Notes: generated from the sequence alone by a model not told the origin. A stretch of 64,000 nt of DNA from Candidatus Gastranaerophilales bacterium (GCA_028280605.1 JANQLL010000205.1:12725-76724); one strand, 5' to 3'. Shown: positions 5,722-64,000, numbered from the stretch's first letter. Made by a program: numbers and translations.

Positions 5722-6154
5722 TCTTATAGAGTCAATTGGAGATAATATAACATGAAGCCTAGTCTCAGACTTTATATACGTTCATTGCAAACTATTTTAT
5801 TTTTTAATAATCCTTTTATAAAAATAATTATTCTACTTTTTAAAATATGTCATGACTCTTTTTATTTTAAAAGTAAGTCATATAAAATTAGAAAAAATAT
5901 ATATGAAAATACTAAAAAAATGGAAAAGGCAAAAAAAATGCTAAATAAGCCATATAAAGATCGTAGTACGATTAATTTTTTAAGATAAAGCTCTCTATCT
6001 TGTTAAATTTTTAATTTAATCTTAAAAAAAATAATATTAAGCTTGTAAAGTTATTTATTGGTCTTTGTAAATTTCAACTATTAATTTGTTTTTATATAAT
6101 TAGAAGTAGTAATATGATTATGTGTAATCACGTTGTCGTTCAGGAGAAAAGTAA

Positions 6155-38151: not shown

Positions 38152-39099
38152 GTGAAAAAATTAATTTCAAAGCTTATTGTATTTTTTATGATTATTAGCC
38201 TGCCGGTTTTTGGTTCGGGTTATACTGATTTTCTTTCTCAAGTGGAAGAAGAGCTTTTTAGCACGGAGTTTAAAAATGAACCTATAGACGCTCGTATCAA
38301 CAGGATTGAGTTAAATACCCTCGGGCAAACAACCAAAGGGTCAAATAAGGCACGAATAAAGAATTTAAGAAAAGTATTTAAATTTAATACATCAAAACCA
38401 AGCAGCCGCTCGTCAAATAGTTATTCTAGCACTGAAGCAGGCAATTTGTCCCCTGAATTTTCAGAGCAGGAATCTAATACTAATTATCCTGCAATTGATA
38501 AAATGGAATTGAGCTTATTCAATAAAACGTACACAAGAGATAATATTTACAAGCGCTTAGCCAGGCTGGAGAAATCTGCATTTAAGAAGCCACAAGTCGG
38601 CAGCTTGGTTGAGAGAACTGATCGATTAAAAAATAAGTTATTTAAAAAAAATAATAATATAGTTTCTTCTTATAATTATTCTAATTATCAAAATTATTCT
38701 TTATCTAATCCCAATTTGTCCGGCTCTTCTGGTTCTTTATATGGAACGCAAGGTAAGAGGCGGTTTAGTGTAACGCGGTCCGGGAATCAAAATTATGGAT
38801 TGAATCAGCATTTTGACGAGCATCTTTTAGCAGAAGCTGAAAAATTAATGTTTGGCACAACTTATATTAATGAACCACCAGAGGTACGTTTGTCCAGGTT
38901 AGAGCAAAAGTTATTCAATCAAGCCTCACCCGGGGATAATATAAATGATCGCTTAGAACGAATTGTTGCTGTAGCGCAGGCACAGCCTTCTACCGGTACT
39001 TATGGTGATTTGGCCAGGATGAGAAAGTATCGAAAAGTTGCTACCGGGGTTACTGTGACTACGATTGTTCTTTTGATTTTGAAGAATTTGATATTTTAG
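38152..39099 (+). CDS. Secreted repeat protein with C-terminal TM anchor
   Basis: GTG start with TGGAG SD. It has a signal peptide, four repeats of the form R(I/L)..(L/I)E...F and a C-terminal hydrophobic helix (TGVTVTTIVLLILKNLIF). Confidence 0.6.
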   Translation: MKKLISKLIVFFMIISLPVFGSGYTDFLSQVEEELFSTEFKNEPIDARINRIELNTLGQTTKGSNKARIKNLRKVFKFNTSKPSSRSSNSYSSTEAGNLSPEFSEQESNTNYPAIDKMELSLFNKTYTRDNIYKRLARLEKSAFKKPQVGSLVERTDRLKNKLFKKNNNIVSSYNYSNYQNYSLSNPNLSGSSGSLYGTQGKRRFSVTRSGNQNYGLNQHFDEHLLAEAEKLMFGTTYINEPPEVRLSRLEQKLFNQASPGDNINDRLERIVAVAQAQPSTGTYGDLARMRKYRKVATGVTVTTIVLLILKNLIF

Positions 39100-43043: not shown

Positions 43044-43116
43044 TGGAGCGTACGAGATTCGAACTCGTGACCTCTTCAATGCCATTGAAGCGCGCTACCA
43101 ACTGCGCCAACGCCCC
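43044..43116 (-). tRNA. tRNA-Ala (anticodon GGC)
   Basis: Manual fold: acceptor GGGGCGU/ACGCUCC with the G3:U70 Ala identity pair, D arm GCGC/GCGC, anticodon loop AUGGCAU and T arm ACGAG-UUCGAAU-CUCGU. CCA is not encoded. Confidence 0.9.
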
Positions 43117-48567: not shown

Positions 48568-49260
48568 TTAGAAAGACCTAAGCGGACTTGGACCGCCATA
48601 CATTGGACTTGAATAACCTGATTGAGAACCACCCATTGGATATCCGCCTCCTGCCGATTGTAATGATGAAAAACTCAGACCATGTTGAGGTGGTCCCCAA
48701 CTACCAGTTTCAATATAATTTCTTATTTGTGCAGCTTCTTGCATTTGGGAAGCTTGATGTATTTGTTGTTGTTGAGCGTAAGCAGCTTGCATTTGTTGCT
48801 GTTGTTGCATCATTGCAGTCTGTTGTTCTGCATATGACTTGCCAAAAATCGCCTGCCCCATCTTATTACCTAGCCAATCGCCTCCCATGCCCAAGGTCAT
48901 ACCTGTGCCCATAGATGCAAAATTGGCTTTTGTAAAAAAGCCTCCTTTACCTCCAGGTACATATCCCATCGCAATAGAACCACCCAACGTTGCCATACCA
49001 ACTCTACAAAATGACCTGCCTAACTGAGCACCAAAATCTCCATTCTGATAGGCCTGTATTAATGCAGGAATTTCAAATGCAACAGGGAGAGCCATAGCAA
49101 ATACGGGAGTATTCATGAAACCTTGATTTACTTTGGTTAAAAAACCTCCTCCATTTGTCGCAGCCTTTGATACAGATTTAGTTGCTGCAGATCCGGCACT
49201 CTTTCCGGAGCCTTTCAATAAATCATCAATAGTTGTGGAAAATATCTTTCCTATTCCCAT
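48568..49260 (-). CDS. Hypothetical Gly-rich membrane protein with poly-Q and G/S/Y-rich C-terminus
   Basis: 230 aa. Glycine-zipper-like segments (GMATLGGSIAMGYVPGG, MGTGMTLGMGG), a MMQQQQQMQAAYAQQQQ run, and a GGGYPMGGSQSGYSSPMYGG tail. Confidence 0.6.
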   Translation of the reverse strand: MGIGKIFSTTIDDLLKGSGKSAGSAATKSVSKAATNGGGFLTKVNQGFMNTPVFAMALPVAFEIPALIQAYQNGDFGAQLGRSFCRVGMATLGGSIAMGYVPGGKGGFFTKANFASMGTGMTLGMGGDWLGNKMGQAIFGKSYAEQQTAMMQQQQQMQAAYAQQQQIHQASQMQEAAQIRNYIETGSWGPPQHGLSFSSLQSAGGGYPMGGSQSGYSSPMYGGPSPLRSF

Positions 49261-49443
49261 TTTTCACCTTCCCATCTTCCTCTTGAAGATAAAACATTCC
49301 CAATTTTATAAACACAATTCCTCCTCAATAATTGCTTATTTATTATAAAGACTTATTAAAAAACTTATTTTTTTAACCCCAAGAACAGTAATAACAAAGA
49401 AAAATATTATATAAAGATATATTAAGGTTTGACCCTTCTAAAC

Positions 49444-49470
49444 TAAAGTTTTTTATAAGGTAAACGATAA
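49444..49470 (+). promoter_or_regulatory. Sigma-28-type promoter of candidate sRNA 1
   Basis: TAAAGTTT-N11-aaCGATAA. Confidence 0.5.
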
Positions 49471-49477
49471 ATATACT

Positions 49478-49535
49478 ATAAGATACCCAAACCTCCTCCC
49501 CAAGTCTGGTAGCCGCCCAAAATAGCGGCTTTTTT
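49478..49535 (+). ncRNA. Candidate small RNA 1 (about 58 nt) with C-rich single-stranded motif and terminator
   Basis: ...ACCCAAACCUCCUCCCCAAGUCUGGUA-GCCGC-ccaaaaua-GCGGC-UUUUUU. The 5' end is inferred from the promoter spacing. Confidence 0.5.
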
Positions 49536-49567
49536 ATTTGCTTTAAAAAAAAATTTTAAAAAAAGGC

Positions 49568-49594
49568 TAAAGTTTTAAAATAATATGCCGATTA
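49568..49594 (+). promoter_or_regulatory. Sigma-28-type promoter of candidate sRNA 2
   Basis: TAAAGTTT-N11-GCCGATtA, a 15/16 match to the TAAAGTTT-N11-GCCGATAA consensus. Confidence 0.6.
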
Positions 49595-49601
49595 TAATAA
49601 T

Positions 49602-49664
49602 ATAGCCAATATACCCCAATCTCTTCCCCAAGTCTGGTAGCCGCCCAAAAAAGCGGCTTTTTTT
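49602..49664 (+). ncRNA. Candidate small RNA 2 (about 63 nt), tandem duplicate of sRNA 1
   Basis: ...CCCCAAUCUCUUCCCCAAGUCUGGUA-GCCGC-ccaaaaaa-GCGGC-UUUUUUU. The 3' 40 nt are nearly identical to sRNA 1. Confidence 0.55.
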
Positions 49665-49725
49665 ATTGGATAAAAAATTTAAAAGAACAAATTAAAAAAG
49701 ACCGTTTAAGGTCTTTATAAAAAAA

Positions 49726-52950: not shown

Positions 52951-53204
52951 AAAAGAAAAAAGGGCTGGAAATCGAGTCCCAACCCTAATTGGATTTCTAC
53001 CCCAAAAGAATTACAAGTTATCATTTTTAGGATTTAGAATGTTGTTTAGGCCTATTTATAAGCCTATCTTTCCCTTGTCTAATTTTCACAAAAAAAAATA
53101 TATATACTTATCTACATAATAGTCTCTCTTTCTATAGCTGTTAACAAGTAATACCAATAATAGCATTACTACTACTCTTTATTATTAAATAAATTCAGGG
53201 CTAC

Positions 53205-53270
53205 TATATTGCTCATCAATTAAGTTCAGGATAACTCTTCACAGAGTAAAGCCTGATTTAATCGTATAGA
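53205..53270 (+). repeat. Dispersed TTTCAGATTA hairpin element, degenerate copy f
   Basis: tatattgctcatcaattaagttcaggataactcttcacagagtaaagcctgattta. Confidence 0.55.
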
Positions 53271-53333
53271 CCATGATAAAATAATCCAATAATCTCGTTA
53301 TATCTCTTCTTTTTCTTATCTCTATTAATTATA

Positions 53334-53375
53334 GCCTACTTATATAAAAACAAAAAAACATATAAAATTGCCAAT
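53334..53375 (-). promoter_or_regulatory. Paralog-array upstream motif, orphan copy 1 (no gene downstream)
   Basis: gcctacttatataaaaacaaaaaaacatataaaattgccaa matches the motif upstream of each array gene. Confidence 0.5.
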
Positions 53376-53551
53376 TTTCTAAAAAATTAATTAAAAAAAT
53401 CAATAACCTAAAACTCCTGAAATTAATCAGGAGTTTTTAAATATACCAGGAGTAAATGTATTAGTATCACAATGGGCAATGGTCAATGAATACTAATACT
53501 TACAAATAAACTTTAGTTATATCAAAAGAAAAGAAAGGTGATGACCACCAC

Positions 53552-53986
53552 CTAAAAGTGAACAGGCTCAGAAATTTTTTCCAAAGTTTCAAATGTCTCG
53601 TGTTCTTCTTTTTCTCCAGCCTTAACAGCTATATCACCAAGAGAAATTAACCCGACTAATTCATTTTCTTGATTAACTATAGGAATTCTTCTTACCTGGT
53701 TTTTCTGCATTTTATTGATCGCACTCTCAATATCGTCATCTTCAAAACAAGTAAATACTTTTTTATTCATAAATTCTTTTAATTGAGTCGTATCAGGATC
53801 TTTTTCATTTAATACTGTATACAAAGCTATATCTCTATCAGTTACTATGCCCTGTACCTGATTACTTTCATTAACAACAGGAGTTACCCCACAGTTTTGC
53901 TCTTTCATAATTAACACAGCATCTTTTATTGTACATTCGGGTGTACAGCTTTTTATATTATGGCTCATTACTTTTTTACATTTCAT
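53552..53986 (-). CDS. CBS-domain pair protein
   Basis: 144 aa with two CBS repeats (GIVTDRDI, GLISLGDI). Confidence 0.85.
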   Translation of the reverse strand: MKCKKVMSHNIKSCTPECTIKDAVLIMKEQNCGVTPVVNESNQVQGIVTDRDIALYTVLNEKDPDTTQLKEFMNKKVFTCFEDDDIESAINKMQKNQVRRIPIVNQENELVGLISLGDIAVKAGEKEEHETFETLEKISEPVHF

Positions 53987-54152
53987 GATAACTATTCTCC
54001 TTTTTTTATTTTATTTTTTTAAAAATTTTTATTGTTTATAAAAAATTAAAAAAAATGAAATTAAAAAAAATATTATCACTTAGCTAATTTTAAAACATTA
54101 GTATTTATGTTTAATGCAAAAGAATAAAATCCGCTCCCATGAATTAATAAAA

Positions 54153-54180
54153 CAAAAAAAAAGCAGTTCTAAGAACTGCC
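54153..54180 (-). terminator. Terminator of array gene P1
   Basis: GCAGTTC-taa-GAACTGC, with a T run on the minus strand. Confidence 0.65.
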
Positions 54181-54224
54181 CATTAAGCTTTATTTTACTT
54201 CGACTTTAATATATATAAATTAAC

Positions 54225-55535
54225 TTAAGCATTTTTGAACCAAACATCGTCAACTCTTTGTTCTTTTCCTGCGCCATCCGTATATGTTCCAACTTGTCTA
54301 TGTTGAACATCACCGGTAGCAGCTTGTTCTTTATATCCTTTTGTATTAATTGTTTTTATATCATTTCCAAGTGCTTCAGGGTTAGTAACGTTATCTTCGC
54401 TAATTAAGCCTAATTCACCTTTTCCGTCTTTTTGCAGTGCTTGGTTAAACAATTGAGCGTTAACTACTCCTTTGTCATCAATAACATCCAGCCCCGATGC
54501 TTTTTCTGCACTCTGAGCAACTTGATTTAACGCATCAAAGCCATTTGCGGCCTCAACAGGCTTGTTTGTATACGGATCAACTGTTTTATCTCCAAATACT
54601 TCTGTTCCGTCAATTTTACCGTTTTTATTTACATCGCCCATTGTAAGCATTTTGTCACCGCCAACAGCCGCACCATCAGCTTTGCCATCTCCATTTATAT
54701 CAACGCCTTGCCCCTGTTGGGCACTAACTTTACCATCTTTATTTCTATCAAGTATTAACGGTGAACCTGTATCATAATCGCCATTTACTGTTGATACACC
54801 ATAACTGTCAGTACTGACTGTGCCATCATCTACTTCTAAATTGTTATTTCCATCTTCTACTTTTACAACTGTTTTATAGTCATCATCCTTTCTATGTTTG
54901 TACAAATGATATCTGTTATCATCTTTTCCTTCTGCAATAAGATATTCAGGCGCACCATTTTTAGCATCTCCGGTTAAATCGTTGCTTAGCGCATATTCTT
55001 TTTCATCTCCGGTAAGCTTGTCTATCAACGGACTATATCCCGTGCCAGTAGTTGTAGTATCGTTAGTAGTACCACCAGTCGTTGTATCAGTACCAGTTCC
55101 TGTTGTTCCTCCGCCGGTTGTTGTATCGTTACCGGTACCTGTTGTACCTCCACCGGTTGTTGTATCATTACCGCTTATCGTACTGTTGCCACCAATTCCG
55201 CCGAATAAGGCACTTAAATCAAAATTACTACCTGAGTTTACACTTGTATTTCCTTGAACAACATTAGTTCCACCCAGATTTGTATTTGATTGATTTTGAA
55301 ATAATGAATCACCAATGCTATTATTTGCTTGAACAACATTAGCTCCGCCAAAATTTGTATTCAATTGATTTTGAAATAATGAACCTAATGAGTTTCCAAT
55401 ACTATTGTTTGCTTGAGCAACATTAGCTCCGCCAAAATTTTGATTCATTTGGTTAAGACTTTTATTTAATTGTTGAAAACTTGACTTTAGCTTATTGGAA
55501 TATAACTTAGATAAGTCCCCCATAGAAATAGTCAT
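54225..55535 (-). CDS. Array paralog P1: repeat-rich N-terminal half plus conserved C-terminal EF-hand-like Ca-binding domain
   Basis: 436 aa with no signal peptide and a GAGGAGAG SD. The C-terminus SPLILDRNKDGKVSAQQGQGVDINGDGKADG...GDVNKNGKIDGTEVFGDKTVDPYTN...VDDVWFKNA is shared with P2-P4. Confidence 0.85.
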   Translation of the reverse strand: MTISMGDLSKLYSNKLKSSFQQLNKSLNQMNQNFGGANVAQANNSIGNSLGSLFQNQLNTNFGGANVVQANNSIGDSLFQNQSNTNLGGTNVVQGNTSVNSGSNFDLSALFGGIGGNSTISGNDTTTGGGTTGTGNDTTTGGGTTGTGTDTTTGGTTNDTTTTGTGYSPLIDKLTGDEKEYALSNDLTGDAKNGAPEYLIAEGKDDNRYHLYKHRKDDDYKTVVKVEDGNNNLEVDDGTVSTDSYGVSTVNGDYDTGSPLILDRNKDGKVSAQQGQGVDINGDGKADGAAVGGDKMLTMGDVNKNGKIDGTEVFGDKTVDPYTNKPVEAANGFDALNQVAQSAEKASGLDVIDDKGVVNAQLFNQALQKDGKGELGLISEDNVTNPEALGNDIKTINTKGYKEQAATGDVQHRQVGTYTDGAGKEQRVDDVWFKNA

Positions 55536-55784
55536 TAATTCTCTCCTCTTTTCTTCTCTCTCTTAATTATGTCTCTCTTTTAAATTTATCTATCAGTAAA
55601 AATATTCACAAAAATAATCTTCTCTAAATAATTCATTATTAATGTTCTTGCTAAATTATTTGATTTAATTATTTTTTTTAAAACTTCTCTCTCTAAGGTG
55701 AAAAATCTGCATAATTATACTTTATAATAAAAGCATTCTATCTCTGGTTATACTAAACGTTCTAATATTCTCAATTTAATCTCT

Positions 55785-55825
55785 TATAAATATATAAAAA
55801 CAATAAATCATAAAAAATTGCTATA
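55785..55825 (-). promoter_or_regulatory. Paralog-array upstream motif, copy 2 (upstream of P1)
   Basis: tataaatatataaaaacaataaatcataaaaaattgctata. Confidence 0.55.
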
Positions 55826-55864
55826 TATTTTTAAATCTGGTAAATAAGTATGATTAACAAAAAA

Positions 55865-55903
55865 ACTTAGAAAGATAAGCCCTCCTCGTTTTGCGGAGGG
55901 CCT
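55865..55903 (-). terminator. Terminator of P2
   Basis: GCCCTCC-tcgttttgc-GGAGGGC hairpin, with a U-rich tail on the minus strand. Confidence 0.65.
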
Positions 55904-55926
55904 TATATATAAACTAAGCAAGAAAT

Positions 55927-57045
55927 TTAAGCATGTTTAAACCAAACATCATTAACTTTTTGCTGGTTTCCTTGAGTATCTATATATGATCCAAGTTGTC
56001 TATGTTGAATATTACCCGTAGCATTTTGCTCTTTATAGCCTTTTGTATTTATATATGCAACATCTCCAAGAGCTTCAGGCTTAGTAACGTTATTGTCACT
56101 TATTAAGCCTAAATTTCCTTTTTTGGCTTGCTTAAGAGCTTGGTCAAGCTTTTGAACATCCACTTTTCCATTTGGATCTACAATGTTCAGTCCAGTGGCT
56201 TTTGAAGCACTTAGAGCAACTTCTCTGAGTGCTTCAAAGCCGTTACGTGCATTAATAGGTTTATTAGTGAACGGATTTACAGTTTTATTTCCAAATACTT
56301 CTGTTCCATCTATCTTACCGTTGCCATTTCTGTCACCTAAGGTTAACATCTTATCTCCGCCGCTAGCTGCACCATCAGCTCTGCCATCTCCGTTTATATC
56401 AACGCCCTGTCCATGTCGAGCACTAACTTTACCATCTTTATTTGTATCAAGTATTAATGGAGAACCGGTTTTAGAGCCTTGGCCTGCTTTTGATACGCCG
56501 TGTTCATCAGTTGTGATATTTTTAGGCTTTAACTTATTACTTCCTTTTGGCAATTTGGTTACAGCCTTATACTTTCCACCATTACCTTTATATAAGTGCT
56601 GCTTACCATCTTTGCCTTTAGCTATAAGATACAGAGGCTCACCTTTGTTATTCTTAGCCGTTAAGTCAACGCTTAAAGCGATTTCTTTTTCTTTTGCGCT
56701 AAGTTGATCTATTAACGGGCTATGTCCAGGTTTAGGTTTTGCAGGCTCTGTTGGACTTGGTTTAGAACTAGGTGCCTTGTGGTTACTGCCACAAAGTAAA
56801 TTTATGATGATATTTATATTTATGTTAGTAAAATCTAATTTTGCAGGAGGTTCTTTAGCTCCTGATAAATTACCAATATTTATAGTTGGTTTAAATACAT
56901 TTGTGATTCCCGCATTTTTGTTAAAAAGTGTTTTGCCGCTACCATAGCTACTATTACTTTGATTAACATTTTTTCCCCCAATATTTTGATTTAGCTGTCT
57001 CACAATTGATGAGGGATCAGCAATATTGATCCTGGTGATACTCAT
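55927..57045 (-). CDS. Array paralog P2
   Basis: 372 aa. The family N-terminus is MSITRINIADPSSIVRQLNQNIGGKNVNQ, with the boxes FKPTINIGN and NININIIINLLC. The conserved C-terminal Ca-binding domain ends VNDVWFKHA. Confidence 0.85.
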   Translation of the reverse strand: MSITRINIADPSSIVRQLNQNIGGKNVNQSNSSYGSGKTLFNKNAGITNVFKPTINIGNLSGAKEPPAKLDFTNININIIINLLCGSNHKAPSSKPSPTEPAKPKPGHSPLIDQLSAKEKEIALSVDLTAKNNKGEPLYLIAKGKDGKQHLYKGNGGKYKAVTKLPKGSNKLKPKNITTDEHGVSKAGQGSKTGSPLILDTNKDGKVSARHGQGVDINGDGRADGAASGGDKMLTLGDRNGNGKIDGTEVFGNKTVNPFTNKPINARNGFEALREVALSASKATGLNIVDPNGKVDVQKLDQALKQAKKGNLGLISDNNVTKPEALGDVAYINTKGYKEQNATGNIQHRQLGSYIDTQGNQQKVNDVWFKHA

Positions 57046-57123
57046 TAGAACTCTCCTCTTCGTCTCTTCTTTCCCGTGCTTGGGCTTATATTTCTATATT
57101 CATTTCTCTATAATTTTTTTCAA

Positions 57124-57168
57124 CTGGCCTATTTATATAAAAACAATGTAGTATATAAAATTGCTATA
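57124..57168 (-). promoter_or_regulatory. Paralog-array upstream motif, copy 3 (upstream of P2)
   Basis: ctggcctatttatataaaaacaatgtagtatataaaattgctata. Its distal end is part of a perfect 28-bp palindrome at 57161..57188. Confidence 0.55.
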
Positions 57169-57216
57169 AAAAATATTTTTTATAGCAATAAACAAATAAA
57201 TTCTAATTAAAATCTT

Positions 57217-57249
57217 TAAAAAAAGTCCTCCCAATTAAGAGGAGGACTC
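57217..57249 (-). terminator. Terminator of P3
   Basis: AGTCCTCC-caattaaga-GGAGGACT with a flanking A/T run. Confidence 0.7.
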
Positions 57250-57281
57250 TATCTATAAATAAAGCACGTTATTGATTTTAA

Positions 57282-58550
57282 TTAAGCATTTTTGAACCAA
57301 ACATCATTAACTTTTTGTTTTTGTCCGCTGCCGTCTGTATAAGATCCAAGCTGTCTGTGTTGAACATTACCGCTAAGCGGACCGCGATCTGTATATCCTT
57401 GAGTATCTACGGACTTTACATCACCAAGAGCTTCAGGTCTTGTAGTGTTATTTCCGCTAATCATTCCTAATTTACCCTTTTTAGTAGCCTGAAGAGCCTG
57501 ATTAAGTTTTTGCATATCAACTTTACCGTTTGGATCAACTATTTGCATGCCTGTAGCTTGTTGAGCACTTTGTGCAACTTTTCTAAGCGCTTCAAATCCA
57601 TTCTTTGCATTAATAGGCTTGTTAGTGAACGGATCTACCGTTTTATCCCCAAAGACTTCTGTTCCATCAATTTTACCGTTTCCATTTCTATCGCCTAAAG
57701 TAAGCATTTTATCTCCGCCGGTAGCTGCACCATCAGCTCTGCCATCGCCATTTACATCTACGCCCATTCCATGTTGCGCACTAACTTTACCGTCTTTATT
57801 TGTATCAAGTATTAATGGTGAACTTGTTTTTGAACCTGAGCCGGCTTGCGATACACCATGTTTATCAGTTGTGATATTTTTAGGTTTTAATTTTCTGCTG
57901 CCATCAGGTGCACTTCCAACAGGTCTGTACTTTCCAGGTTCCTTTTGGTGATACAAACGATTCTTGCCATCTTTACCTTTTCCAATAAGATATTTAGGCT
58001 TTCCATCAGGTCCTTTTTCTTTTAAATTAAGACCTCTGGCAAGCTTTCTATCTTGTGGACTAAGTTTATTTAATAACGGTGAGGTTCTTCTGCGTCTTCT
58101 AATAGTTCTGGGTTTATTTGTTGTACCGGTTGGAGATCCTGTATTACCCGTATTACCCGTATTACCGGTATTGCCAGTATTACCTGTATTACCAGTTTGG
58201 TCTTTAAGACCTTTACAAAGTAAATTTATAATTAAATTTATATTTATAGTTGGGGATTTACCATCACCTGATTGATTTGGTAATCCTCCAGTATTCTTAG
58301 AAGTATCATTATTATTTGTTAATCCGCCAATATTTATAGAGGGCGAATTACCTACACCTGCTTGATTTTGCAATCCTCCAATGTTTATAGTCGGCTTAAA
58401 TACATTTTTGAATTTAGGTCCTCTATGCTTATGACCGTGAGCCTGATTATGATCAGGACCGACAATATTTTGGTTAACAGTCTTGCCCCCAGTATTTTTA
58501 TTTATCAATTTTACTAAAGGCGATTGATTAGCCGTTGAAATATTAATCAT
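57282..58550 (-). CDS. Array paralog P3
   Basis: 422 aa. It has the family N-terminus, a (GNT)x6 linker and an RRRR patch. The C-terminal domain is nearly identical to that of P4. Confidence 0.85.
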   Translation of the reverse strand: MINISTANQSPLVKLINKNTGGKTVNQNIVGPDHNQAHGHKHRGPKFKNVFKPTINIGGLQNQAGVGNSPSINIGGLTNNNDTSKNTGGLPNQSGDGKSPTININLIINLLCKGLKDQTGNTGNTGNTGNTGNTGNTGSPTGTTNKPRTIRRRRRTSPLLNKLSPQDRKLARGLNLKEKGPDGKPKYLIGKGKDGKNRLYHQKEPGKYRPVGSAPDGSRKLKPKNITTDKHGVSQAGSGSKTSSPLILDTNKDGKVSAQHGMGVDVNGDGRADGAATGGDKMLTLGDRNGNGKIDGTEVFGDKTVDPFTNKPINAKNGFEALRKVAQSAQQATGMQIVDPNGKVDMQKLNQALQATKKGKLGMISGNNTTRPEALGDVKSVDTQGYTDRGPLSGNVQHRQLGSYTDGSGQKQKVNDVWFKNA

Positions 58551-58680
58551 TAAACTCTCCTCTTCGTCTCTTATCCAGTCTTGCGCTCTAAATCTCTAGT
58601 AAATCTTATTTACTTAAGTTCTCTCTATATAATTTTGCTAATCTTATTAAATCTCTCTCTATATATATTCTCTCTAAGAA

Positions 58681-58725
58681 CTTGCCTATCTATATAAAAA
58701 CAAACAAAGGTATAAAATTGCTATA
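58681..58725 (-). promoter_or_regulatory. Paralog-array upstream motif, copy 4 (upstream of P3)
   Basis: cttgcctatctatataaaaacaaacaaaggtataaaattgctata. Confidence 0.55.
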
Positions 58726-58803
58726 TAACATATTTTTTTAATTAATAAATTAAACTAATAAAGGCATAATCTACTACCTGGTAAGATTTTAAGTGTCGTA
58801 CAT

Positions 58804-58833
58804 AAAAAAAAATCCCCCAAAAATAGGAGGATT
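58804..58833 (-). terminator. Terminator of short array gene S1
   Basis: AATCCCCC-aaaaat-AGGAGGATT (one mismatch) with a flanking A run. Confidence 0.6.
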
Positions 58834-58896
58834 ATATATTTGCAACTAAGAATATTATTATTCTGCTTGAAGAAAAGTACCTTTGAGTTTATCTGA

Positions 58897-59418
58897 TTAA
58901 GCCATTTGAGGAAATATATTTATATTTACATTGTTATCCCGGCAGGCTTTTGCAGGCAAGTTTTGTGGCTGAGAATCACTACAAAGGCAAGGGGAATTTT
59001 GAAATATATTTATATTTACATTGTTACCCTGACAGGCTTTTGAAGGGGAAGTTGGGGAATTTTGAGATTGTATATTATTATTAGTGCCAGATCCATTTTG
59101 AAATATATTTGCATTATCATTATTGTTAGTATTATTACTGCCGTTATTATTATTAATATTGATATTATTATTGTTTACATTAAAAATATTATTAATATCC
59201 TGTTTTGGAGTTGATTTGCTTGGAGTAGAAAGACCTTTAATAAGATTCTTCAATCCTGATTTTAATGGTGAATTAGCAGGCTTTTTCTTGGGTTTAAATA
59301 TATTTTTACCACTAAAAACAGGTTTCTTTCTAGTAGGCTTTTTTCGCCTTGGAGGTCTTTTTCTGCCCATAAATTTCTTAAAAATGTTTGTATTAAAAAC
59401 TTTCTTGCCACCGCACAT
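58897..59418 (-). CDS. Array short member S1: basic N-terminus, Asn-rich, repeated NIF/NINI boxes
   Basis: The start is set at MCGGKK (GAGGAGAA SD 6 nt upstream). KKPVFSGKNIFKPKKKP resembles the family FKNVFKP box. It has no C-terminal Ca-binding domain. Confidence 0.6.
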   Translation of the reverse strand: MCGGKKVFNTNIFKKFMGRKRPPRRKKPTRKKPVFSGKNIFKPKKKPANSPLKSGLKNLIKGLSTPSKSTPKQDINNIFNVNNNNININNNNGSNNTNNNDNANIFQNGSGTNNNIQSQNSPTSPSKACQGNNVNINIFQNSPCLCSDSQPQNLPAKACRDNNVNINIFPQMA

Positions 59419-59676
59419 TAATATTCTCCTCAATCTCTCTGTTTATTGCTAACGCTATTATTAATTATTATTTATGGCATGATTAATGCCAATCATATGC
59501 TAACATTGTTAATTAATATTATTTTTATAATATTGACACTAATAACATGCCAATATTAATATTGAATATGCTAAAATTATTATTAATACTCTCCTTGATA
59601 ATATTTCTATCTCTTATTAGAAGTATGCTAACATTATATTAATATTGTTTATGTAACTCTCTATATCTTTAAAATA

Positions 59677-59721
59677 CTTGCTTATTTATATAAAAACAAA
59701 CTAATCTATAAAATTGCTATA
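59677..59721 (-). promoter_or_regulatory. Paralog-array upstream motif, copy 5 (upstream of S1)
   Basis: cttgcttatttatataaaaacaaactaatctataaaattgctata. Confidence 0.55.
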
Positions 59722-59725
59722 CTAA

Positions 59726-59822
59726 CTCAAAAATACTTTTCAGATTATTCAATCGTGTTAAATCTGATAAAATAGGCTATATTCTGAAAAGAGTAATCAA
59801 AAATTTAATTGAGAACCTGTAT
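59726..59822 (-). repeat. Dispersed TTTCAGATTA hairpin element, copy g (reverse orientation)
   Basis: ctcaaaaatacttttcagattattcaatcg...ttctgaaaagagtaatcaaaaatttaattgagaacctgtat. It abuts motif copy 5. Confidence 0.85.
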
Positions 59823-59892
59823 ATATAGAATATTTTTTGAATTGATAAATTTTAATAAAAAACAGCTTTAAATAAAAAATAAAATAAAGCTC

Positions 59893-59921
59893 AAAAAAAT
59901 CCTCCCAAGAATAGGAGGATT
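59893..59921 (-). terminator. Terminator of P4
   Basis: AATCCTCC-caagaat-AGGAGGATT with a flanking A7 run. Confidence 0.75.
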
Positions 59922-59955
59922 ATATATTATAAATTAAGCACGTTATTGATTTTAA

Positions 59956-61218
59956 TTAAGCATTTTTGAACCAAACATCATTAACTTTTTGTTTTTGTCC
60001 GCTGCTGTCTGTATAAGACCCAAGCTGTCTGTGCTGAACATTACCGCTAAGCTGGCCGCGATCTGTATATCCTTGAGTATCTATGGATTTAACATCACCA
60101 AGAGCTTCAGGTCTTGTAGTGTTATTGCCACTAATCATTCCTAACTTGCCTTTTCCGGCTGATTCAAGAGCTTGATTAAGTTTTTGCACATCAACTTTAC
60201 CATTAGCATCAACTATTTGCATACCTGTTGCCTGTTGAGCGCTTTGTGCTACTTGTCTGAGCGCTTCAAATCCATTTTTTGCATTAATAGGTTGGTTTGT
60301 AAACGGATCAACAGTTTTATCTCCAAATACTTCAGTTCCATCAATTTTACCATTGCCGTTTCTATCACCCATTGTAAGCATCTTATCTCCGCCAACAGCT
60401 GCGCCATCAGCTCTGCCATCTCCGTTAACATCCACGCCCATACCATGTTGAGCACTAACTTTACCGTCTTTATTTGTATCAAGTATTAATGGAGAACTCG
60501 TTTTAGAACCTGAGCCGGCTTGCGATACACCATGTTTATCAGTTGTGATACCTTTAGGCTCTAATTCATTACTGCCGTCCGGCGCTTTGTTAATAGCTTT
60601 GTATTCACCTGGCTTTTCTTGCTGGTACAAACGAGGTTTACCATCTTTACCTTTACCAATAAGATATTTAGGCTTGCCATCAGACCCTTTTGCTTTTAAA
60701 TCAAGCCCCTTAGCTCTATTTCTATCTTCCGGACTAAGCGACTTTAATAGCGGTGAACCACTACTTACAGGTCGTCTCGTAGTTACAGGCTTTTTAGCAA
60801 TGTCACTTGTTGAGCCTGTATCACCTGCTGAGCCACTACCACTTGTTGATGATGGTTCTTTACCTTTCAGAGCCAATATTAAATTTATAATTAAATTTAT
60901 GTTTATAGTAGGTGAACCGCTTGAATCTGATTGATTTGTTGCTCCACCAGAATTTTGAGTACCATTATTATTTGTTAATCCCCCAATACTAATAGTTGGT
61001 TTAAATACATTTTTGAAAACAGGTTTTCTACCTGTATGATTAAGCTTGTGTCCGCCAATATGCTTGTACTTAGGTCCGACATGCCTATGTTTGTGACCAA
61101 CATGATTGTGATTATTCCCATTGATAGTTTGACTAATATTATTGCCCCCAGTATTTTTATTTATTTGTTTCACGTTTGAAAATGGGGCAGATGAAATCTG
61201 AATTCTAGCTGCGCTCAT
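59956..61218 (-). CDS. Array paralog P4
   Basis: 420 aa. It has the family N-terminus (MSAARIQISSAPFSNVKQINKNTGGNNISQ), an His-rich patch, the ININLIINL box and the conserved C-terminal domain. Confidence 0.85.
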   Translation of the reverse strand: MSAARIQISSAPFSNVKQINKNTGGNNISQTINGNNHNHVGHKHRHVGPKYKHIGGHKLNHTGRKPVFKNVFKPTISIGGLTNNNGTQNSGGATNQSDSSGSPTININLIINLILALKGKEPSSTSGSGSAGDTGSTSDIAKKPVTTRRPVSSGSPLLKSLSPEDRNRAKGLDLKAKGSDGKPKYLIGKGKDGKPRLYQQEKPGEYKAINKAPDGSNELEPKGITTDKHGVSQAGSGSKTSSPLILDTNKDGKVSAQHGMGVDVNGDGRADGAAVGGDKMLTMGDRNGNGKIDGTEVFGDKTVDPFTNQPINAKNGFEALRQVAQSAQQATGMQIVDANGKVDVQKLNQALESAGKGKLGMISGNNTTRPEALGDVKSIDTQGYTDRGQLSGNVQHRQLGSYTDSSGQKQKVNDVWFKNA

Positions 61219-61250
61219 TAATATTCTCTCCTCTTCAGTCTCTTTTTAAT

Positions 61251-61395
61251 ACTTCTCATCAGTAAAAATTCAGATTACTCTTTAGAATGAGCTTCTAAAA
61301 AGTAAAATTAGCCATTTCACTTTTTAACGCTCCCGCATCGCAATTCAGAGGCTAGTTTATTCGATATTGAATAATCTGAAAAATACATTAGTAAG
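61251..61395 (+). repeat. Dispersed TTTCAGATTA hairpin element, copy h, with a roughly 55-nt internal insertion, inside the P4 5' UTR region
   Basis: tacttctcatcagtaaaaattcagattactcttt...[insertion]...caattcagaggctagtttattcgatattgaataatctgaaaaatac. Confidence 0.7.
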
Positions 61396-61472
61396 TTAGT
61401 AGTATTGACCTTAATCTCTCCGGTAATATTGTAAGTTTTTCATCTCTCTTTCATATACTCTCTTTTTAAAAA

Positions 61473-61517
61473 CTCGCCTATCTATATAAAAACAATAAAG
61501 AATAAAGAATTGCCATA
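61473..61517 (-). promoter_or_regulatory. Paralog-array upstream motif, copy 6 (upstream of P4)
   Basis: ctcgcctatctatataaaaacaataaagaataaagaattgccata. Confidence 0.55.
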
Positions 61518-61555
61518 TAAAATATTTTTTAAGTCAATAAATAATAAATAAATGT

Positions 61556-61585
61556 CTAAAAAATCCTCCTATTTCTAGGAGGATT
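61556..61585 (-). terminator. Terminator of P5
   Basis: AATCCTCCTA-tttc-TAGGAGGATT with a flanking A run. Confidence 0.75.
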
Positions 61586-61626
61586 ATATATAGTAAATTA
61601 AGCACGTTAATATTTATTGATTAAAA

Positions 61627-62385
61627 TTAAGCTAACTTAAACGAAATACTATTACCGCCATCATTATTAGCGCCAAAAGTTGGCTGTGTATTTTTAGGAG
61701 TCGTCTTTACTGTTGATACTCCGTGTTGATCAGTTTGGATGTTTGGATTTTGACCTAACTGTAAACGTTGTTTTTGACCATTTGCATCTCTTGATACTGT
61801 TTTATACTTCCCCGGCTGCCTTCGACTCTGTTTAAATAAACGAGGCTTATCATCTTTACCATTTGCTATAAGGTACATAGGCTTGCCATCTTGTCCTTTA
61901 GCAGTAATATCATTATTTTCAGCAAACTTTTTGTCAGCTCCGTTTAAAAGGTTAAGCATTGGACTTTGTCCGGTTTGTTTTGTTGCGGCTTGTTTACCGG
62001 TAGTTGTAGCAGCAGGACTTGTATTAGAAGTTGCACTTGCCGGCTGTGCAGCACCTTTACCCTTCAACTTCTTACATAATAAATTTAAAATTAAATTTAT
62101 ATTTATATTAGGTGAACCACTTGAGCCTGATTTTGTTGGAGAACCTGGCTTTGCAGACGGGTCGGATTGTAAGGGTGAACCTCCCAAATTAATGGATGGC
62201 TTAAATACGTTTTTAAAAATAGGAGCACCCGACTTGGGAGCTTCTTTACCTGAAGTATTTTTGGCAAGAGTTTTGCCAGCAGGCTTTTGATTAATATCTA
62301 ATTTATTCCTATTGTCCTTTCCGCCATTTTTATTTAACTGTTTAACTAAGGGGTTAGGTAAAACACTTGTTTTTGCTGCACTCAT
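61627..62385 (-). CDS. Array paralog P5, truncated form lacking the Ca-binding C-terminal domain
   Basis: 252 aa. It shares the N-terminal boxes (PIFKNVFKPSINLGG, NININLILNLLCKKLKGKG, SPMLNLL..., DGKPMYLIANGKDDKPRLF, QTDQHGVSTV) and then ends where the other paralogs continue with SPLILD... Confidence 0.75.
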   Translation of the reverse strand: MSAAKTSVLPNPLVKQLNKNGGKDNRNKLDINQKPAGKTLAKNTSGKEAPKSGAPIFKNVFKPSINLGGSPLQSDPSAKPGSPTKSGSSGSPNININLILNLLCKKLKGKGAAQPASATSNTSPAATTTGKQAATKQTGQSPMLNLLNGADKKFAENNDITAKGQDGKPMYLIANGKDDKPRLFKQSRRQPGKYKTVSRDANGQKQRLQLGQNPNIQTDQHGVSTVKTTPKNTQPTFGANNDGGNSISFKLA

Positions 62386-62457
62386 TAATACTCTCCTCTT
62401 TATATATATTTAATAAAGACCTCAATCTCATTCTATTATTTGTTAATTAAATATTTT

Positions 62458-62685
62458 CCCTGCGCTAAACGCAAAAATTTTCTTTATTAATACTTAAAAT
62501 GCCTCTGTAGTAATTGCAGAATTTTTCTTTATTAATACTTAAAATGTCTCTATGGTAATAGCAGAATTTTTCTTTATTAAATACTGTAACTTCTTTGTGT
62601 TAATCACAAAGTTTCTCATTATTAATACTATAATTTCTATGTGGTAACAGTGGAATTATTTATTATTGGTAGATATTTTATGGGA
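62458..62685. repeat. About 5 tandem copies of a roughly 45-nt unit in the P5 5' UTR
   Basis: Each unit is a short hairpin (tgcg-ctaaa-cgca, ctat-ggta-atag, tgtg-ttaat-caca ...) followed by (g)aatttttctttattaatacttaaaatg. Confidence 0.75.
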
Positions 62686-62726
62686 TAGAATTATTATTTA
62701 TCTTTCTATTATATTTTTATTAAAAA

Positions 62727-62771
62727 CTCGCTTATTTATATAAAAACAATTAAGAATATAAAATTGCTATA
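62727..62771 (-). promoter_or_regulatory. Paralog-array upstream motif, copy 7 (upstream of P5)
   Basis: ctcgcttatttatataaaaacaattaagaatataaaattgctata. Confidence 0.55.
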
Positions 62772-62888: not shown

Positions 62889-63626
62889 CTAATTCACCAT
62901 TATTTTTTCACCGGTCTTAGGATCTTGTTCTACCCAGCTATTAGCTTTATTCCATGCTGGCAGATTGCCGGATGATGTATCTTTTGGTGTATTACCTGGA
63001 AGGGATGTGCTAACAATAGAGTCCTGTGGAGTATCAGATGTACCTGTAGGTGTAGCTTTTGAAGTATCACTTACGGGCTTTTTAGTGCTGGATGGATCTT
63101 GTGATGGACTGCCGCCCTTACCTTTTAATACATTAAGAATTTGTTTTAAGAGTTTAATAATAGTCATTTGACCTTTACCACTACCACAATTATTATTTCC
63201 GTTAAATATATTTTGATTGGCATTTATTGGAGAACTACCGTCACTGTTTATAACTTGACTTGCATTAACCGGTGAGCCGTCACTACCACTATTTATAACT
63301 TGATTTGCATTTATTGGTGAGCCGTCACCGCCGCTATTTATAACTTGATTTGCATTAACCGGTGAACCGTTACCACCGCTATTTATAACCTGATTTGCAT
63401 TAATCGGTGAACCGTTACTCTTAATTACTTCTGAACTTGAGCCGTTTGGTGACTGCTGTGTCTTTTTGATAAATCCTGGACCTGATTGAGTTACGGACTT
63501 GCCTGTAGGAAATATACTTTTGCTGCCTGGTGTTTTATCTGAAGAGCCTTCTGTAATTCTTTTAGTTGTTCTTTTGTGCCAATATTTTGTTTTAAACTTA
63601 AATTTAAATTCTGATTTTTTACACAT
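62889..63626 (-). CDS. Array short member S2: basic N-terminus plus 16-aa GSP(I/V)NANQVINSGG repeats
   Basis: 245 aa with a GAGGAGAG SD and an MCKK start like S1. It has 4-5 tandem 48-nt repeats. The MTIIKLLKQILNVLKGKGG box resembles the family ININLIINLLCKKLKGKG box. Confidence 0.65.
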   Translation of the reverse strand: MCKKSEFKFKFKTKYWHKRTTKRITEGSSDKTPGSKSIFPTGKSVTQSGPGFIKKTQQSPNGSSSEVIKSNGSPINANQVINSGGNGSPVNANQVINSGGDGSPINANQVINSGSDGSPVNASQVINSDGSSPINANQNIFNGNNNCGSGKGQMTIIKLLKQILNVLKGKGGSPSQDPSSTKKPVSDTSKATPTGTSDTPQDSIVSTSLPGNTPKDTSSGNLPAWNKANSWVEQDPKTGEKIMVN

Positions 63627-63810
63627 ATGACTACTCTCCTCAATGCATTTATTCTGTAATGTACTAAACGTATTGTTAAATCATTATGCTATTTACTTAA
63701 CTGGTAATATTTATTGATAATGCTATACTAAATTATGATTAATGTATGGCATTTAAACTATACAAAAACCTTTTAATAACAGGTAATAGATAAATTTAAA
63801 AAGATATATA

Positions 63811-63912
63811 TACTACTCATCAATTAAATTTCAGATTACTCTTTTCAGAGAGTAGTTTATTTTAATAACTTTAACTCGATTTAATAATCTGAAAAGTATT
63901 TTAGAGGGAGTA
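63811..63912 (+). repeat. Dispersed TTTCAGATTA hairpin element, copy i (best forward copy)
   Basis: tactactcatcaattaaatttcagattactcttttcagagagtag...cgatttaataatctgaaaagtattttagagggag. TATACTACT occurs at both edges. A further degenerate mini-copy follows at about 63925..63975. Confidence 0.85.
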
Positions 63913-64000
63913 TACTACTGATCTACTAAATTGCTCATTTAAACTTTTTAATAATCAAAAAAGTATTATAAGTGTTAGTATAAATGCTTTTTAAGTGGTA

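What the first reader, a model, noticed from the sequence alone, without database searches (positions are those of the whole stretch)
53334..62771. Conserved roughly 45-nt bipartite motif upstream of every array gene (7 copies)
In gene orientation the motif is TATAGCAATTTTATA-N6-10-TTGTTTTTATATA(A/G)ATA(A/G)GC(A/G)AG. Copies lie at 53334, 55785, 57124, 58681, 59677, 61473 and 62727. The flanking UTR sequence is much more divergent than the motif, which suggests selection on the motif itself. It does not read as a standard -35/-10 pair at normal spacing, and it is not sigma-28- or sigma-54-like. It may therefore be a binding site for a dedicated regulator or alternative sigma factor that coordinates, or selects among, the paralogs. 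A weaker look-alike (atttgtttttatataattag, 6094..6113) sits about 45 nt upstream of ORF 6155.
Basis: seen in the sequence. Interest (0 to 1): 0.62.

Follow-up and report, generated by a model that had tools for sequence, protein, structure and literature searches.

The report
Lineage-wide specialised promoter in gut Melainabacteria
The repeated 40-base motif is real. It is most likely a special promoter, with two fixed boxes a fixed distance apart, that non-photosynthetic relatives of cyanobacteria (Melainabacteria) place in front of many fast-evolving genes of unknown function, so it is not a private switch for this one gene array.

Summary
All seven copies are at the stated coordinates on the minus strand. 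They are far beyond chance (6 matches found against 0.01 expected), and the flanks are much less conserved than the motif. Three details need correcting. The gap is always exactly 7 nt, not N6-10. Six copies precede array genes, and the seventh (53331-53375) precedes an ORF-less unit that ends at a terminator. Array ORF 62889-63626 has no copy inside the window.

The consensus is R-GCAATTTTwTA-N7-TTGTTTTTATATA-wATAnR. An exact-pattern scan of 185,579 species genomes found 106 stretches in about 66 assemblies. Eighty-five are labelled Gastranaerophilales, Melainabacteria or Cyanobacteria, and none came from viral contigs.

The copies are intergenic (119 of 122) and point at a downstream gene (83 of 95). 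They sit typically 28-33 nt, and as little as 16 nt, from the start codon, so RNA polymerase must sit on the motif itself. The motif has no TAnnnT -10 element. Canonical sigma-70 and sigma-28 promoters exist separately in the same genomes.

My best reading is a promoter class read by a dedicated alternative sigma factor, which is not identified. One speculative candidate is a divergent FliA-like sigma encoded next to flhB. The genes it drives are mostly orphan Q/N/G/S-rich proteins without signal peptides. This is a new variant of a known kind and is of moderate interest.

The parts
62729..62768 (-). Motif copy 1 (AGCAATTTTATA-N7-TTGTTTTTATATA-aataagcg). It follows terminator 62829-62805 and drives ORF 61627-62385 through a leader of about 345 nt.
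   Evidence: PWM 43.9 bits; alignment; terminator; distance to start codon.
61475..61514 (-). Motif copy 2 (GGCAATTCTTTA-N7-TTGTTTTTATATA). It drives ORF 59956-61218.
   Evidence: PWM 41.6 bits.
59679..59718 (-). Motif copy 3. It drives ORF 58897-59433.
   Evidence: PWM 41.7 bits.
58683..58722 (-). Motif copy 4. It follows terminator 58833-58811 and drives ORF 57282-58550.
   Evidence: PWM 40.3 bits.
57126..57165 (-). Motif copy 5. It follows terminator 57243-57226 and drives ORF 55927-57045 through an 88-nt leader.
   Evidence: PWM 38.6 bits.
55783..55822 (-). Motif copy 6. It drives ORF 54225-55535.
   Evidence: PWM 43.1 bits.
53333..53372 (-). Motif copy 7. It is followed by no ORF.
   Evidence: PWM 41.6 bits; no ORF of 30 aa or more downstream.
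52961..53332 (-). ORF-less transcription unit downstream of copy 7. It contains one half of the MITE-like element and ends at intrinsic terminator 52986-52961. It is either a candidate non-coding RNA or a promoter left over from a lost gene.
49297..49336 (-). Weak variant copy (AGCAATTATTGA-N7-TTGTGTTTATAAA), about 45 nt upstream of ORF 48568-49260, which encodes a G/Q/S-rich protein of 230 aa.
   Evidence: PWM 18.6 bits, above every shuffle; translation.
6067..6106 (+). Half copy. The TTGTTTTTATATA block is exact (6086-6098), but the upstream block is TAAATTTCAAC and has no GCAA. It lies upstream of ORFs 6155-6442 and 6487-6822. The latter is a coiled-coil protein that, by eye, resembles proteins found downstream of full copies in other species.
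54225..62385 (-). Six single-gene transcription units of the paralog array, each built as motif, leader, ORF and terminator. Four of the six ORFs end in a calcium-binding domain with the fold of the FrpC self-processing module.
   Evidence: ORFs; terminators; structure prediction and fold search.

Best explanation
The element is a complete promoter of a specialised class, not an operator placed next to an ordinary promoter. It has two rigidly spaced boxes. RGCAATTTTwTA lies roughly at -38 to -27, and TTGTTTTTATATAwATA roughly at -19 to -3. Transcription is predicted to start at the conserved purine 6-8 nt after TATATA. RNA polymerase is most likely directed to this promoter by a dedicated alternative sigma-70-family factor. 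Its region 4 would read the GCAATT box, and its regions 2 and 3 would read the long T-rich/TATATA box. The promoter defines a regulon conserved across Melainabacteria (class Vampirovibrionia). In this window it gives each paralog of the array its own transcription unit, so the paralogs are co-regulated.

Shown:
- The motif, its fixed geometry and its clade-wide distribution.
- Its intergenic position, its orientation and its closeness to start codons.
- Its difference from the sigma-70 and sigma-28 promoters of the same genomes.

Inferred:
- That it is read by an alternative sigma factor.
- The transcription start position.
- The identity of the factor. The only named candidate is a highly conserved, divergent FliA-like sigma encoded directly after flhB, and this rests on elimination, not on a direct link.
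For: 1. The motif is real and has sharp edges. A logo of 123 non-redundant copies shows information only at positions 0-11 and 19-39. The N7 gap and both flanks are at background.

2. The spacing is strict. In the fetched loci there are 124 copies at the canonical gap and 1 copy one base shorter. An unbiased metagenome scan with GCAATT-N{6,18}-TTGTTTTTATATA gave 34 hits at gap 12 and 4-12 hits at each other gap.

3. The two boxes are obligately coupled. Of 95 exact GCAATTTTWTA sites, 89 carry the second box with at most 1 mismatch.

4. The motif is lineage-wide. There are 106 exact stretches in about 66 species-level assemblies. Eighty-five are labelled Gastranaerophilales, Melainabacteria, Cyanobacteria, Vampirovibrio or Caenarcanum. 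Most of the oddly labelled loci share proteins with the labelled ones.

5. The placement is that of a promoter. 119 of 122 copies lie outside ORFs of 150 aa or more, although 73% of bases lie inside such ORFs. 83 of 95 copies have a co-oriented gene start within 450 nt, against 27 of 95 with a divergent one. The commonest distance to the ATG is 28-33 nt and the minimum is about 16 nt, which leaves no room for a separate promoter.

6. In the window each copy sits 35-75 nt after the terminator of the preceding gene.

7. It is not the housekeeping promoter class. The conserved block has no TAnnnT. The sigma-70 scan is not enriched (59 sites against 51 +/- 7) and never calls the motif. By eye, upstream of a tRNA gene and ORF 31534-33132 lie near-consensus TTGACA/TGACA and TATACT/TATGAT hexamers, the tRNA pair only about 15 bp apart.

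8. It is not sigma-28. A canonical FliA/WhiG gene is in the window. TAAAGTTT-N11-GCCGATAA sites occur separately, 9 against 0-2 in shuffles.

9. Motif-driven genes form a coherent class. They are enriched in Q, N, G and S, have a median length of 177 aa, and only 4% have an N-terminal hydrophobic stretch against 17% of controls.
Against: - There is no transcription start data, so promoter activity and the start site are inferred.
- No trans-acting factor has been linked to the motif. The candidate sigma is not in the window, and its own locus carries only a degenerate copy nearby.
- The invariance of the two boxes across genomes is partly imposed by my exact-match search. The unbiased evidence is smaller: the 7 window copies, about 17 extra copies in the loci, and the 34 metagenome hits.
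- A sigma-A promoter with an unusual -10 element plus an obligatory activator would produce the same sequence pattern.
Confidence: 0.7

Rival explanations
1. The element is a housekeeping (sigma-A) promoter with an atypical -10 region. It depends on a dedicated class-II activator that binds the GCAATT box, and possibly the TTG as well, at a fixed distance. The regulon would then be defined by a transcription factor rather than by a sigma factor.
For: - The downstream box contains TATATA, which is close to TATAAT.
- Fixed spacing between an activator site and the -10 element is typical of class-II activation.
- CAA-N14-TTG is a weak inverted repeat.
- A subset of copies carries extra palindromes (AAAGTATATA..TATATACTTT) overlapping one or the other box. 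This shows that further regulators act on these promoters.
Against: - There is no T at the sixth position of any candidate hexamer (no TAnnnT), although that base is a key sigma-A contact (established knowledge).
- Thirteen contiguous bases are invariant, including TTGTT at about -19 to -15. This is more than sigma-A plus an activator at -35 would explain.
- The two boxes almost never occur apart.
Confidence: 0.2
2. The element is a protein-binding site (repressor operator or nucleoid-protein site) with no promoter function of its own, and the real promoters lie elsewhere.
For: The sites are AT-rich and bipartite with fixed spacing. By eye, TAGCAATTTTTTA is one mismatch away from the IHF consensus WATCAANNNNTTR (consensus from memory).
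Against: - The distance from the motif end to the ATG peaks at 28-33 nt and can be as short as 16 nt, so no separate promoter fits downstream.
- Upstream, the flanks are unconserved, and in the window they begin only 35-75 nt after a terminator.
- The motif is strictly oriented toward the downstream gene.
Confidence: 0.05
3. The element acts at the RNA level, as a conserved 5'-UTR element such as a binding site for a translational regulator or a processing site, or it is a recombination or mobile-element site that spreads among paralogs.
For: - The window leaders are long (88-351 nt) and carry repeats.
- The array copies are direct repeats that could in principle recombine.
Against: - There is no general secondary structure. 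The N7 gap and flanks show no covariation beyond a small subset with palindromes (7% against 2% in controls).
- There is no Rfam match.
- There is too little unconserved sequence between the upstream terminator and the motif to hold another promoter.
- Single copies occur in front of unrelated single-copy genes in about 66 genomes, with no terminal repeats, no target-site duplications and no recombinase.
- There are no hits in viral contigs.
Confidence: 0.04

Closest known systems
Sigma-28 (FliA/WhiG) promoters, TAAAGTTT-N11-GCCGATAA
   Same: - Both are bipartite alternative-sigma promoters with rigid spacing and a long (8 nt or more) downstream element.
- The start-to-start distance between the two boxes is 18 nt here and 19 nt in sigma-28 promoters.
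- The upstream box GCAATTTT shares the pattern xxAAxTTT with TAAAGTTT.
- Both drive a dedicated regulon that includes proteins without signal peptides.
   Different: - The downstream box is unrelated (TTGTTTTTATATA against GCCGATAA).
- Canonical sigma-28 sites coexist as a separate class in the same genomes, and a canonical FliA gene is present.
Housekeeping sigma-70/SigA promoters, including extended -10 variants
   Same: Both have an AT-rich TATA-like element about 7 nt upstream of the presumed start and a second box about 20-25 bp further upstream.
   Different: - There is no TTGACA-like hexamer, since GCAATT does not resemble it.
- The spacer to TATATA is 19 bp.
- There is no TAnnnT.
- The TG lies 4 nt from TATATA rather than 1 nt.
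- The whole 13-nt box is near-invariant.
Phage T4 late promoters (TATAAATA, read by gp55); comparison from memory
   Same: About 40% of copies contain TATAAATA, because the box continues as TATATA-(A/T)-ATA. Both are long AT-rich -10-type elements.
   Different: T4 late promoters have no upstream box and need phage proteins. This motif needs GCAATT at a fixed distance, and no viral contig carries it.
TcdR/BotR/TetR/UviA (group 5) sigma promoters of clostridial toxin genes; comparison from memory
   Same: A small divergent sigma factor in an AT-rich genome is dedicated to genes for exported proteins, and the promoter consensus is unlike that of the housekeeping sigma.
   Different: As I recall them, the consensus sequences differ (-35 TTTACA, -10 GTTATA).

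Membership tests
Sigma-70 (housekeeping) promoter | -35 hexamer resembling TTGACA | tested here: not met
   The upstream box is RGCAATT. At the canonical 17-bp distance from TATATA the sequence is AATTTT.
Sigma-70 (housekeeping) promoter | -10 hexamer of the form TAnnnT, 16-18 bp from the -35 hexamer | tested here: not met
   No TAnnnT fits anywhere in the conserved block TTTTTATATAwATA. The consensus scan, which requires A at position 2 and T at position 6, never calls the motif on the minus strand. The spacer from GCAATT to TATATA is 19 bp.
Sigma-28 (FliA) promoter | TAAA(GTTT)-N15(N11)-GCCGATAA | tested here: not met
   The sigma-28 pattern searches gave no hit at any motif copy. True sigma-28-like sites are at 49444 and 49568 and in other loci.
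Sigma-54 promoter | GG at -24 and GC at -12, exactly 10 bp apart (TGGCAC-N5-TTGCW) | tested here: not met
   Only 2 of 7 window copies have GG before CAA. About 10 nt upstream of the TTG lie only the T/A-rich positions 8-11, with no conserved GG.
ECF sigma promoter | -35 element containing AAC and -10 element containing CGT, 16-17 bp apart | tested here: not met
   The logo has no AAC or CGT. The downstream box contains only A and T after the TTG.
Alternative-sigma bipartite promoter (generic kind) | Two conserved boxes at fixed spacing, intergenic, oriented toward a gene, and close enough to the start codon that RNA polymerase must cover them | tested here: met
Alternative-sigma bipartite promoter (generic kind) | A cognate sigma factor, and a transcription start that depends on it | not testable with these tools
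   There is no transcript data. A candidate divergent FliA-like sigma was found, but it is linked to the motif only by elimination.
Known structured RNA (Rfam) | Match to a covariance model, or conserved base pairing | tested here: not met
   There is no Rfam hit at gathering threshold, nor at E of 1 or less apart from two chance-level hits. There is no general inverted-repeat signal.
MITE or IS end, or recombination site | Terminal inverted repeats, conserved element body, target-site duplication | tested here: not met
   Conservation stops sharply at the edges of the motif, and the copies have unrelated flanks.

The most novel reading that the evidence does not exclude
The motif is the promoter of a Melainabacteria-specific sigma factor, namely the highly conserved, divergent FliA paralog encoded in an operon with the export-gate gene flhB. 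That sigma would couple a flagellar-type (type III) export apparatus to expression of a large, fast-evolving set of exported proteins without signal peptides: calcium-dependent proteins with the fold of the FrpC self-processing module, peptidoglycan hydrolases and Q/N-rich orphan proteins. This would amount to an effector-like secretome regulon in uncultured gut relatives of cyanobacteria.
Probability: 0.12. Interest if true: 0.8.

Novelty: new variant of a known kind. Interest (0 to 1): 0.55.

Why it matters
Gut and environmental Melainabacteria are almost entirely uncultured, and I found no description of their gene regulation. A 40-nt near-invariant promoter signature with fixed geometry offers three things:
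- It is a purely computational handle on a whole regulon in any MAG of the class.
- It flags dozens of orphan genes per genome as co-regulated and probably exported.
- It poses a well-defined biochemical question, namely which sigma factor or activator reads a -10 region without TAnnnT.

It also supplies a candidate strong and specific promoter part for future genetics in this lineage. For this window specifically, it shows that the array paralogs are independent, similarly driven transcription units rather than a choose-one system.

Tried and rejected
- **Variable spacing (N6-10).** Rejected. The alignment is ungapped and the gap is strict.
- **Hairpin or cruciform involving the N7 gap.** Several striking palindromes prompted this idea. 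A partner-swap control shows only a small excess (arms of 9 nt or more: 7.2% against 1.9%, and 3.6% against 0.8%). The excess is confined to a recurring AAAGTATATA/TATATACTTT palindrome, which is probably the operator of a second regulator. It is not a general feature.
- **Phage origin.** No viral contig carries the motif.
- **Known RNA family.** None matches.
- **Flagellar regulon.** Searches of the 815 kb around motif copies with FlgE, FlgK, FlgM, FlhA and FliS queries written from memory found nothing. A FliN query hit two proteins with a FliN C-terminal domain (L036 and L083), whose predicted start in L036 is 427 nt downstream of a copy. A flagellin lies 5 kb from a copy. The link is therefore weak.
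Rejected, because separate canonical sigma-28 sites exist.
- **Source contig.** The array proteins and P0001 are not on record by exact look-up. Only EF-G was found, in a Logan assembly of SRR20820735.
- **Motif at the candidate sigma locus.** L228 has no copy with 3 or fewer mismatches, only a degenerate one (TCAATT-N12-TTGTTTTTTAAATA).
- **Literature.** Searches for the sequence and for Melainabacteria promoters or sigma factors found nothing relevant.


Full report
**Observation.** The window is AT-rich (about 32% G+C). Between 54.2 and 63.6 kb it carries seven minus-strand ORFs. The core TTGTTTTTATATA is exact at all seven stated places and once more at 6086-6098. An alignment of the seven upstream regions (A1) needs no gap inside the motif. 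The structure is T(A/G)GCAATTyTwTA, then exactly 7 unconserved bases, then TTGTTTTTATATA.

Pairwise identity among the seven copies is 0.90 for the first box and 0.85 for the second. It is 0.44 in the N7 gap, about 0.45 in the neighbouring 40 nt and 0.27 beyond that. Selection is on the motif, not on a duplicated segment.

A PWM scan of the whole window gives the seven copies at 38.6-43.9 bits. It also gives a weak copy at 49297-49336 (minus strand, 18.6 bits) upstream of ORF 48568-49260, and a half copy at 6067-6106 (17.2 bits). Shuffles reach 8.8 bits at most.

Six copies precede array ORFs. The copy at 53331-53375 is followed by no ORF and by a terminator at 52986-52961. ORF 62889-63626 has no copy before the window ends.

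**Where else the motif occurs.** I scanned one genome for each of 185,579 species for GCAATTNTNTA-N7-TTGTTTTTATATA. This returned 106 stretches in about 66 assemblies. Eighty-five are labelled Candidatus Gastranaerophilales or Gastranaerophilaceae, Melainabacteria, Cyanobacteria or Cyanobacteriota, Vampirovibrio, Caenarcanum, Adamsella or Limenecus. Of the other 21, with uninformative or doubtful labels, 16 share proteins with labelled loci or the window, mostly at 30-77% identity. My rough estimate of the chance expectation for this pattern in the AT-rich part of that collection is below one hit.

The window itself belongs to this lineage. Its array proteins have their closest relatives on contigs whose lengths match those of Gastranaerophilales MAG contigs JANQHM010000235.1 (PL23b_bin.96) and JANQFW010000074.1 (PL23b_bin.2). 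No viral contig carries the motif. The element is therefore not a local by-product of tandem duplication. It is conserved across a class-level lineage.

**Anatomy.** A logo from 123 non-redundant copies shows information only at position 0 (R), positions 1-11 (GCAATTtTtTA) and positions 19-31 (TTGTTTTTATATA). It also shows information at positions that my search did not force: 33-35 (A-T-A) and 37-39 (R-a-g). The 39 nt upstream of position 0, the N7 gap and everything beyond position 41 are at background.

The spacing is rigid. In the fetched loci there are 124 copies at the canonical gap and 1 copy one base shorter. A metagenome scan that allowed gaps of 6 to 18 gave 34 hits at gap 12 and 4-12 hits at every other gap. 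The two boxes almost always come together: 89 of 95 exact GCAATTTTWTA sites have the second box, and only about five exact second boxes lack GCAAT. Positions 7-11 tolerate change, so the core is GCAATT-N12-TTGTTTTTATATA.

**Placement.** 119 of 122 copies lie outside ORFs of 150 aa or more, although 73% of the sequence is inside such ORFs. 83 of 95 copies have a co-oriented gene start with a Shine-Dalgarno sequence within 450 nt downstream. Only 27 of 95 have a divergent start upstream. The distance from the end of TATATA to the start codon clusters at 28-33 nt and goes down to about 16 nt. In the shortest cases the Shine-Dalgarno sequence begins 4-6 nt after the box. No independent promoter can fit downstream of the motif.

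In the window the motif begins only 35-75 nt after the intrinsic terminator of the preceding gene, and that stretch is unconserved. RNA polymerase must therefore bind on the motif. The most likely start is the conserved purine 6-8 nt after TATATA.

**Not one of the known promoter classes.** Because the conserved block alternates T and A, no TAnnnT hexamer fits anywhere in it. The distance from GCAATT to TATATA is 19 bp. The tool's sigma-70 scan finds no more sites in the array region than in shuffles (59 against 51 +/- 7) and never calls the motif. Ordinary promoters in the same window look near-canonical by eye: TTGACA then TATACT (only about 15 bp apart) before tRNA 43044-43116, and TGACA-N17-TATGAT before ORF 31534-33132.

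The window also encodes a canonical FliA/WhiG sigma at 35923-36756 (TIGR02479, 253 bits against a cutoff of 190). Near-perfect sigma-28 promoters TAAAGTTT-N11-GCCGATTA lie at 49568 and 49444. Across the Melainabacteria loci there are 9 such sites, against 0-2 in shuffles. The housekeeping and sigma-28 classes are thus already accounted for, and the motif is a third class. There is no GG-N10-GC (sigma-54) and no AAC/CGT (ECF) pattern.

**Hairpins.** Some copies show striking palindromes that pair the N7 region with the upstream or downstream flank. A control that swaps partners between copies shows only a small excess of arms of 9 nt or more: 7.2% against 1.9% around the first box, and 3.6% against 0.8% around the second. 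The excess is due mainly to a recurring AAAGTATATA/TATATACTTT palindrome, including in front of small ribbon-helix-helix genes. I read this as the operator of a second regulator on a subset of promoters, not as a property of the motif.

**What the motif drives.** I extracted 77 distinct proteins of 60 aa or more downstream of copies in other genomes. Most have no Pfam domain. The few hits are EF-hand, CopG-type ribbon-helix-helix, SLT, LysM, CHAP, NlpC/P60, glucosaminidase and the FliN C-terminal domain. Compared with other long ORFs in the same loci, these proteins are enriched in Q (1.8-fold), N, G and S. They are shorter (median 177 aa against 333 aa). They rarely have an N-terminal hydrophobic stretch (4% against 17%).

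Orthologous genes in different species keep the motif while their flanks diverge. Examples are the MGYALFAQRK family in L004, L021, L043, L044 and L090, and the ribbon-helix-helix genes in L015, L054 and L082. Related arrays in PL23b_bin.96 and PL23b_bin.2 also carry one copy per paralog.

**The array proteins.** The conserved C-terminal 188 residues fold with high confidence (pLDDT 96.4, pTM 0.92). Their only significant PDB match is the calcium-dependent self-processing module of Neisseria FrpC (6sjx and 6sjw; E about 8e-8; TM 0.56-0.61; 27-30% identity). The residue before the invariant proline, which is the scissile Asp in FrpC, is Ser in 37 of 42 family members and Asp in 4. Self-cleavage is therefore doubtful. 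A calcium-dependent fold does suggest an extracellular destination, by inference.

**Who reads the motif.** This is not resolved. In the sequence sampled I found four kinds of sigma gene:
- RpoD-like (L048).
- Group-2-like (L101).
- Canonical FliA (window, L104).
- A divergent 217-aa protein in L033, whose regions 3-4 resemble FliA/WhiG (TIGR02479, 81 bits, below the cutoff). Pfam does not recognise its region 2.

The last gene lies directly after a lone flhB, in the order maf, phosphoribosyltransferase, flhB, sigma, both in L033 and in three further contigs. More than 120 sequence clusters are 84-100% identical to it, and all those that carry a name are Gastranaerophilales.

By elimination, and because an atypical region 2 fits a -10 box without TAnnnT, this is the best candidate. 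The first box (GCAATTTT) also shares xxAAxTTT with the sigma-28 -35 element. There is no direct link, however, and near the gene itself I found only a degenerate motif.

**Verdict.**
- The idea that it selects among the paralogs is not supported. The motif is a lineage-wide promoter class, and the array is one set of its many targets.
- I found no description of it in the literature.
- It is a new variant of a known kind, the alternative-sigma-type bipartite promoter. What makes it notable is its extreme conservation and the orphan, probably exported, proteins it controls.

Noticed in passing
window 49444-49540 and 49568-49665 (+): Two tandem small units, each with a near-consensus sigma-28 promoter (TAAAGTTT-N11-AACGATAA and TAAAGTTT-N11-GCCGATTA). 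Each is followed by about 60 nt containing a C/U-rich stretch (CCUCCUCCCC or CUCUUCCCC), unpaired in one of the two predicted folds, and an intrinsic terminator. They are candidate FliA-dependent small RNAs with an anti-Shine-Dalgarno sequence. There is no Rfam match.
   Followed up: partly
window 63805-63915 (-); partial copies at 1465, 8528, 8731, 43301, 47541, 48481, 53212, 59726, 61255: A palindromic repeat of about 105 nt with inverted ends (GTATACTCCCTC ... GATGAGTAGTATAC) and an inner TTTCAGATTA/TAATCTGAAA stem. It folds into one long hairpin (-23.3 kcal/mol, z = -3.75). It looks like a MITE. Several copies sit inside the leaders of motif-driven genes. The same element occurs in Gastranaerophilales MAG PL23b_bin.96 (L011, L022, L069, L070).
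   Followed up: partly
window 54228-54800, 55930-56490, 57285-57848, 59959-60516 (-): The C-terminal domain of four array proteins has the fold of the calcium-dependent self-processing ('clip-and-link') module of Neisseria FrpC (Foldseek E about 8e-8; model pLDDT 96). The scissile Asp-Pro is Ser-Pro in 37 of 42 relatives. Homologues carry the precomputed label PF26745 and occur fused to RHS and RTX repeats in other phyla.
   Followed up: partly
window 35923-36756 (+) and ORFs 36753-39099: A canonical FliA/WhiG sigma-28 gene followed by three ORFs (181, 267 and 315 aa) with no Pfam match; the first two also have no NCBIfam match. No other flagellar genes were recognised among the window ORFs I scanned.
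   Followed up: partly
L033 3968-5719 (-); L228-L230 8902-10660 (+): A lone flhB (FlhB/YscU family) gene is followed within 18-25 nt by a 217-219-aa divergent FliA-like sigma gene, in the conserved order maf, phosphoribosyltransferase, flhB, sigma. The sigma is 84-100% identical across more than 120 sequence clusters from Gastranaerophilales.
   Followed up: partly
window 62471-62585 (-): A 45-nt unit repeated 2.5 times in tandem (90% matches) inside the leader of about 345 nt between motif copy 1 and ORF 61627-62385. The window's array leaders (88-351 nt) are much longer than the 28-33 nt typical of this promoter class elsewhere.
   Followed up: no
L003, L015, L049, L074, L107 (around the GCAATT box); L031, L064, L068 (around the TATATA box); L052 carries a variant around GCAATT: A recurring palindrome, (AC)AAAAGTATATA ... 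TATATACTTTT(GT), brackets one or the other box of the motif in several species, including in front of small CopG-type ribbon-helix-helix genes. It is probably the operator of an autoregulated repressor acting on a subset of these promoters.
   Followed up: partly
window 4340-4422 (+): A sigma-28-like site, TAAAG-N15/16-ACCGATAT, about 40 nt upstream of ORF 4423-4800 (125 aa, no Pfam match). I saw it by eye in the upstream sequence and did not test it statistically.
   Followed up: no
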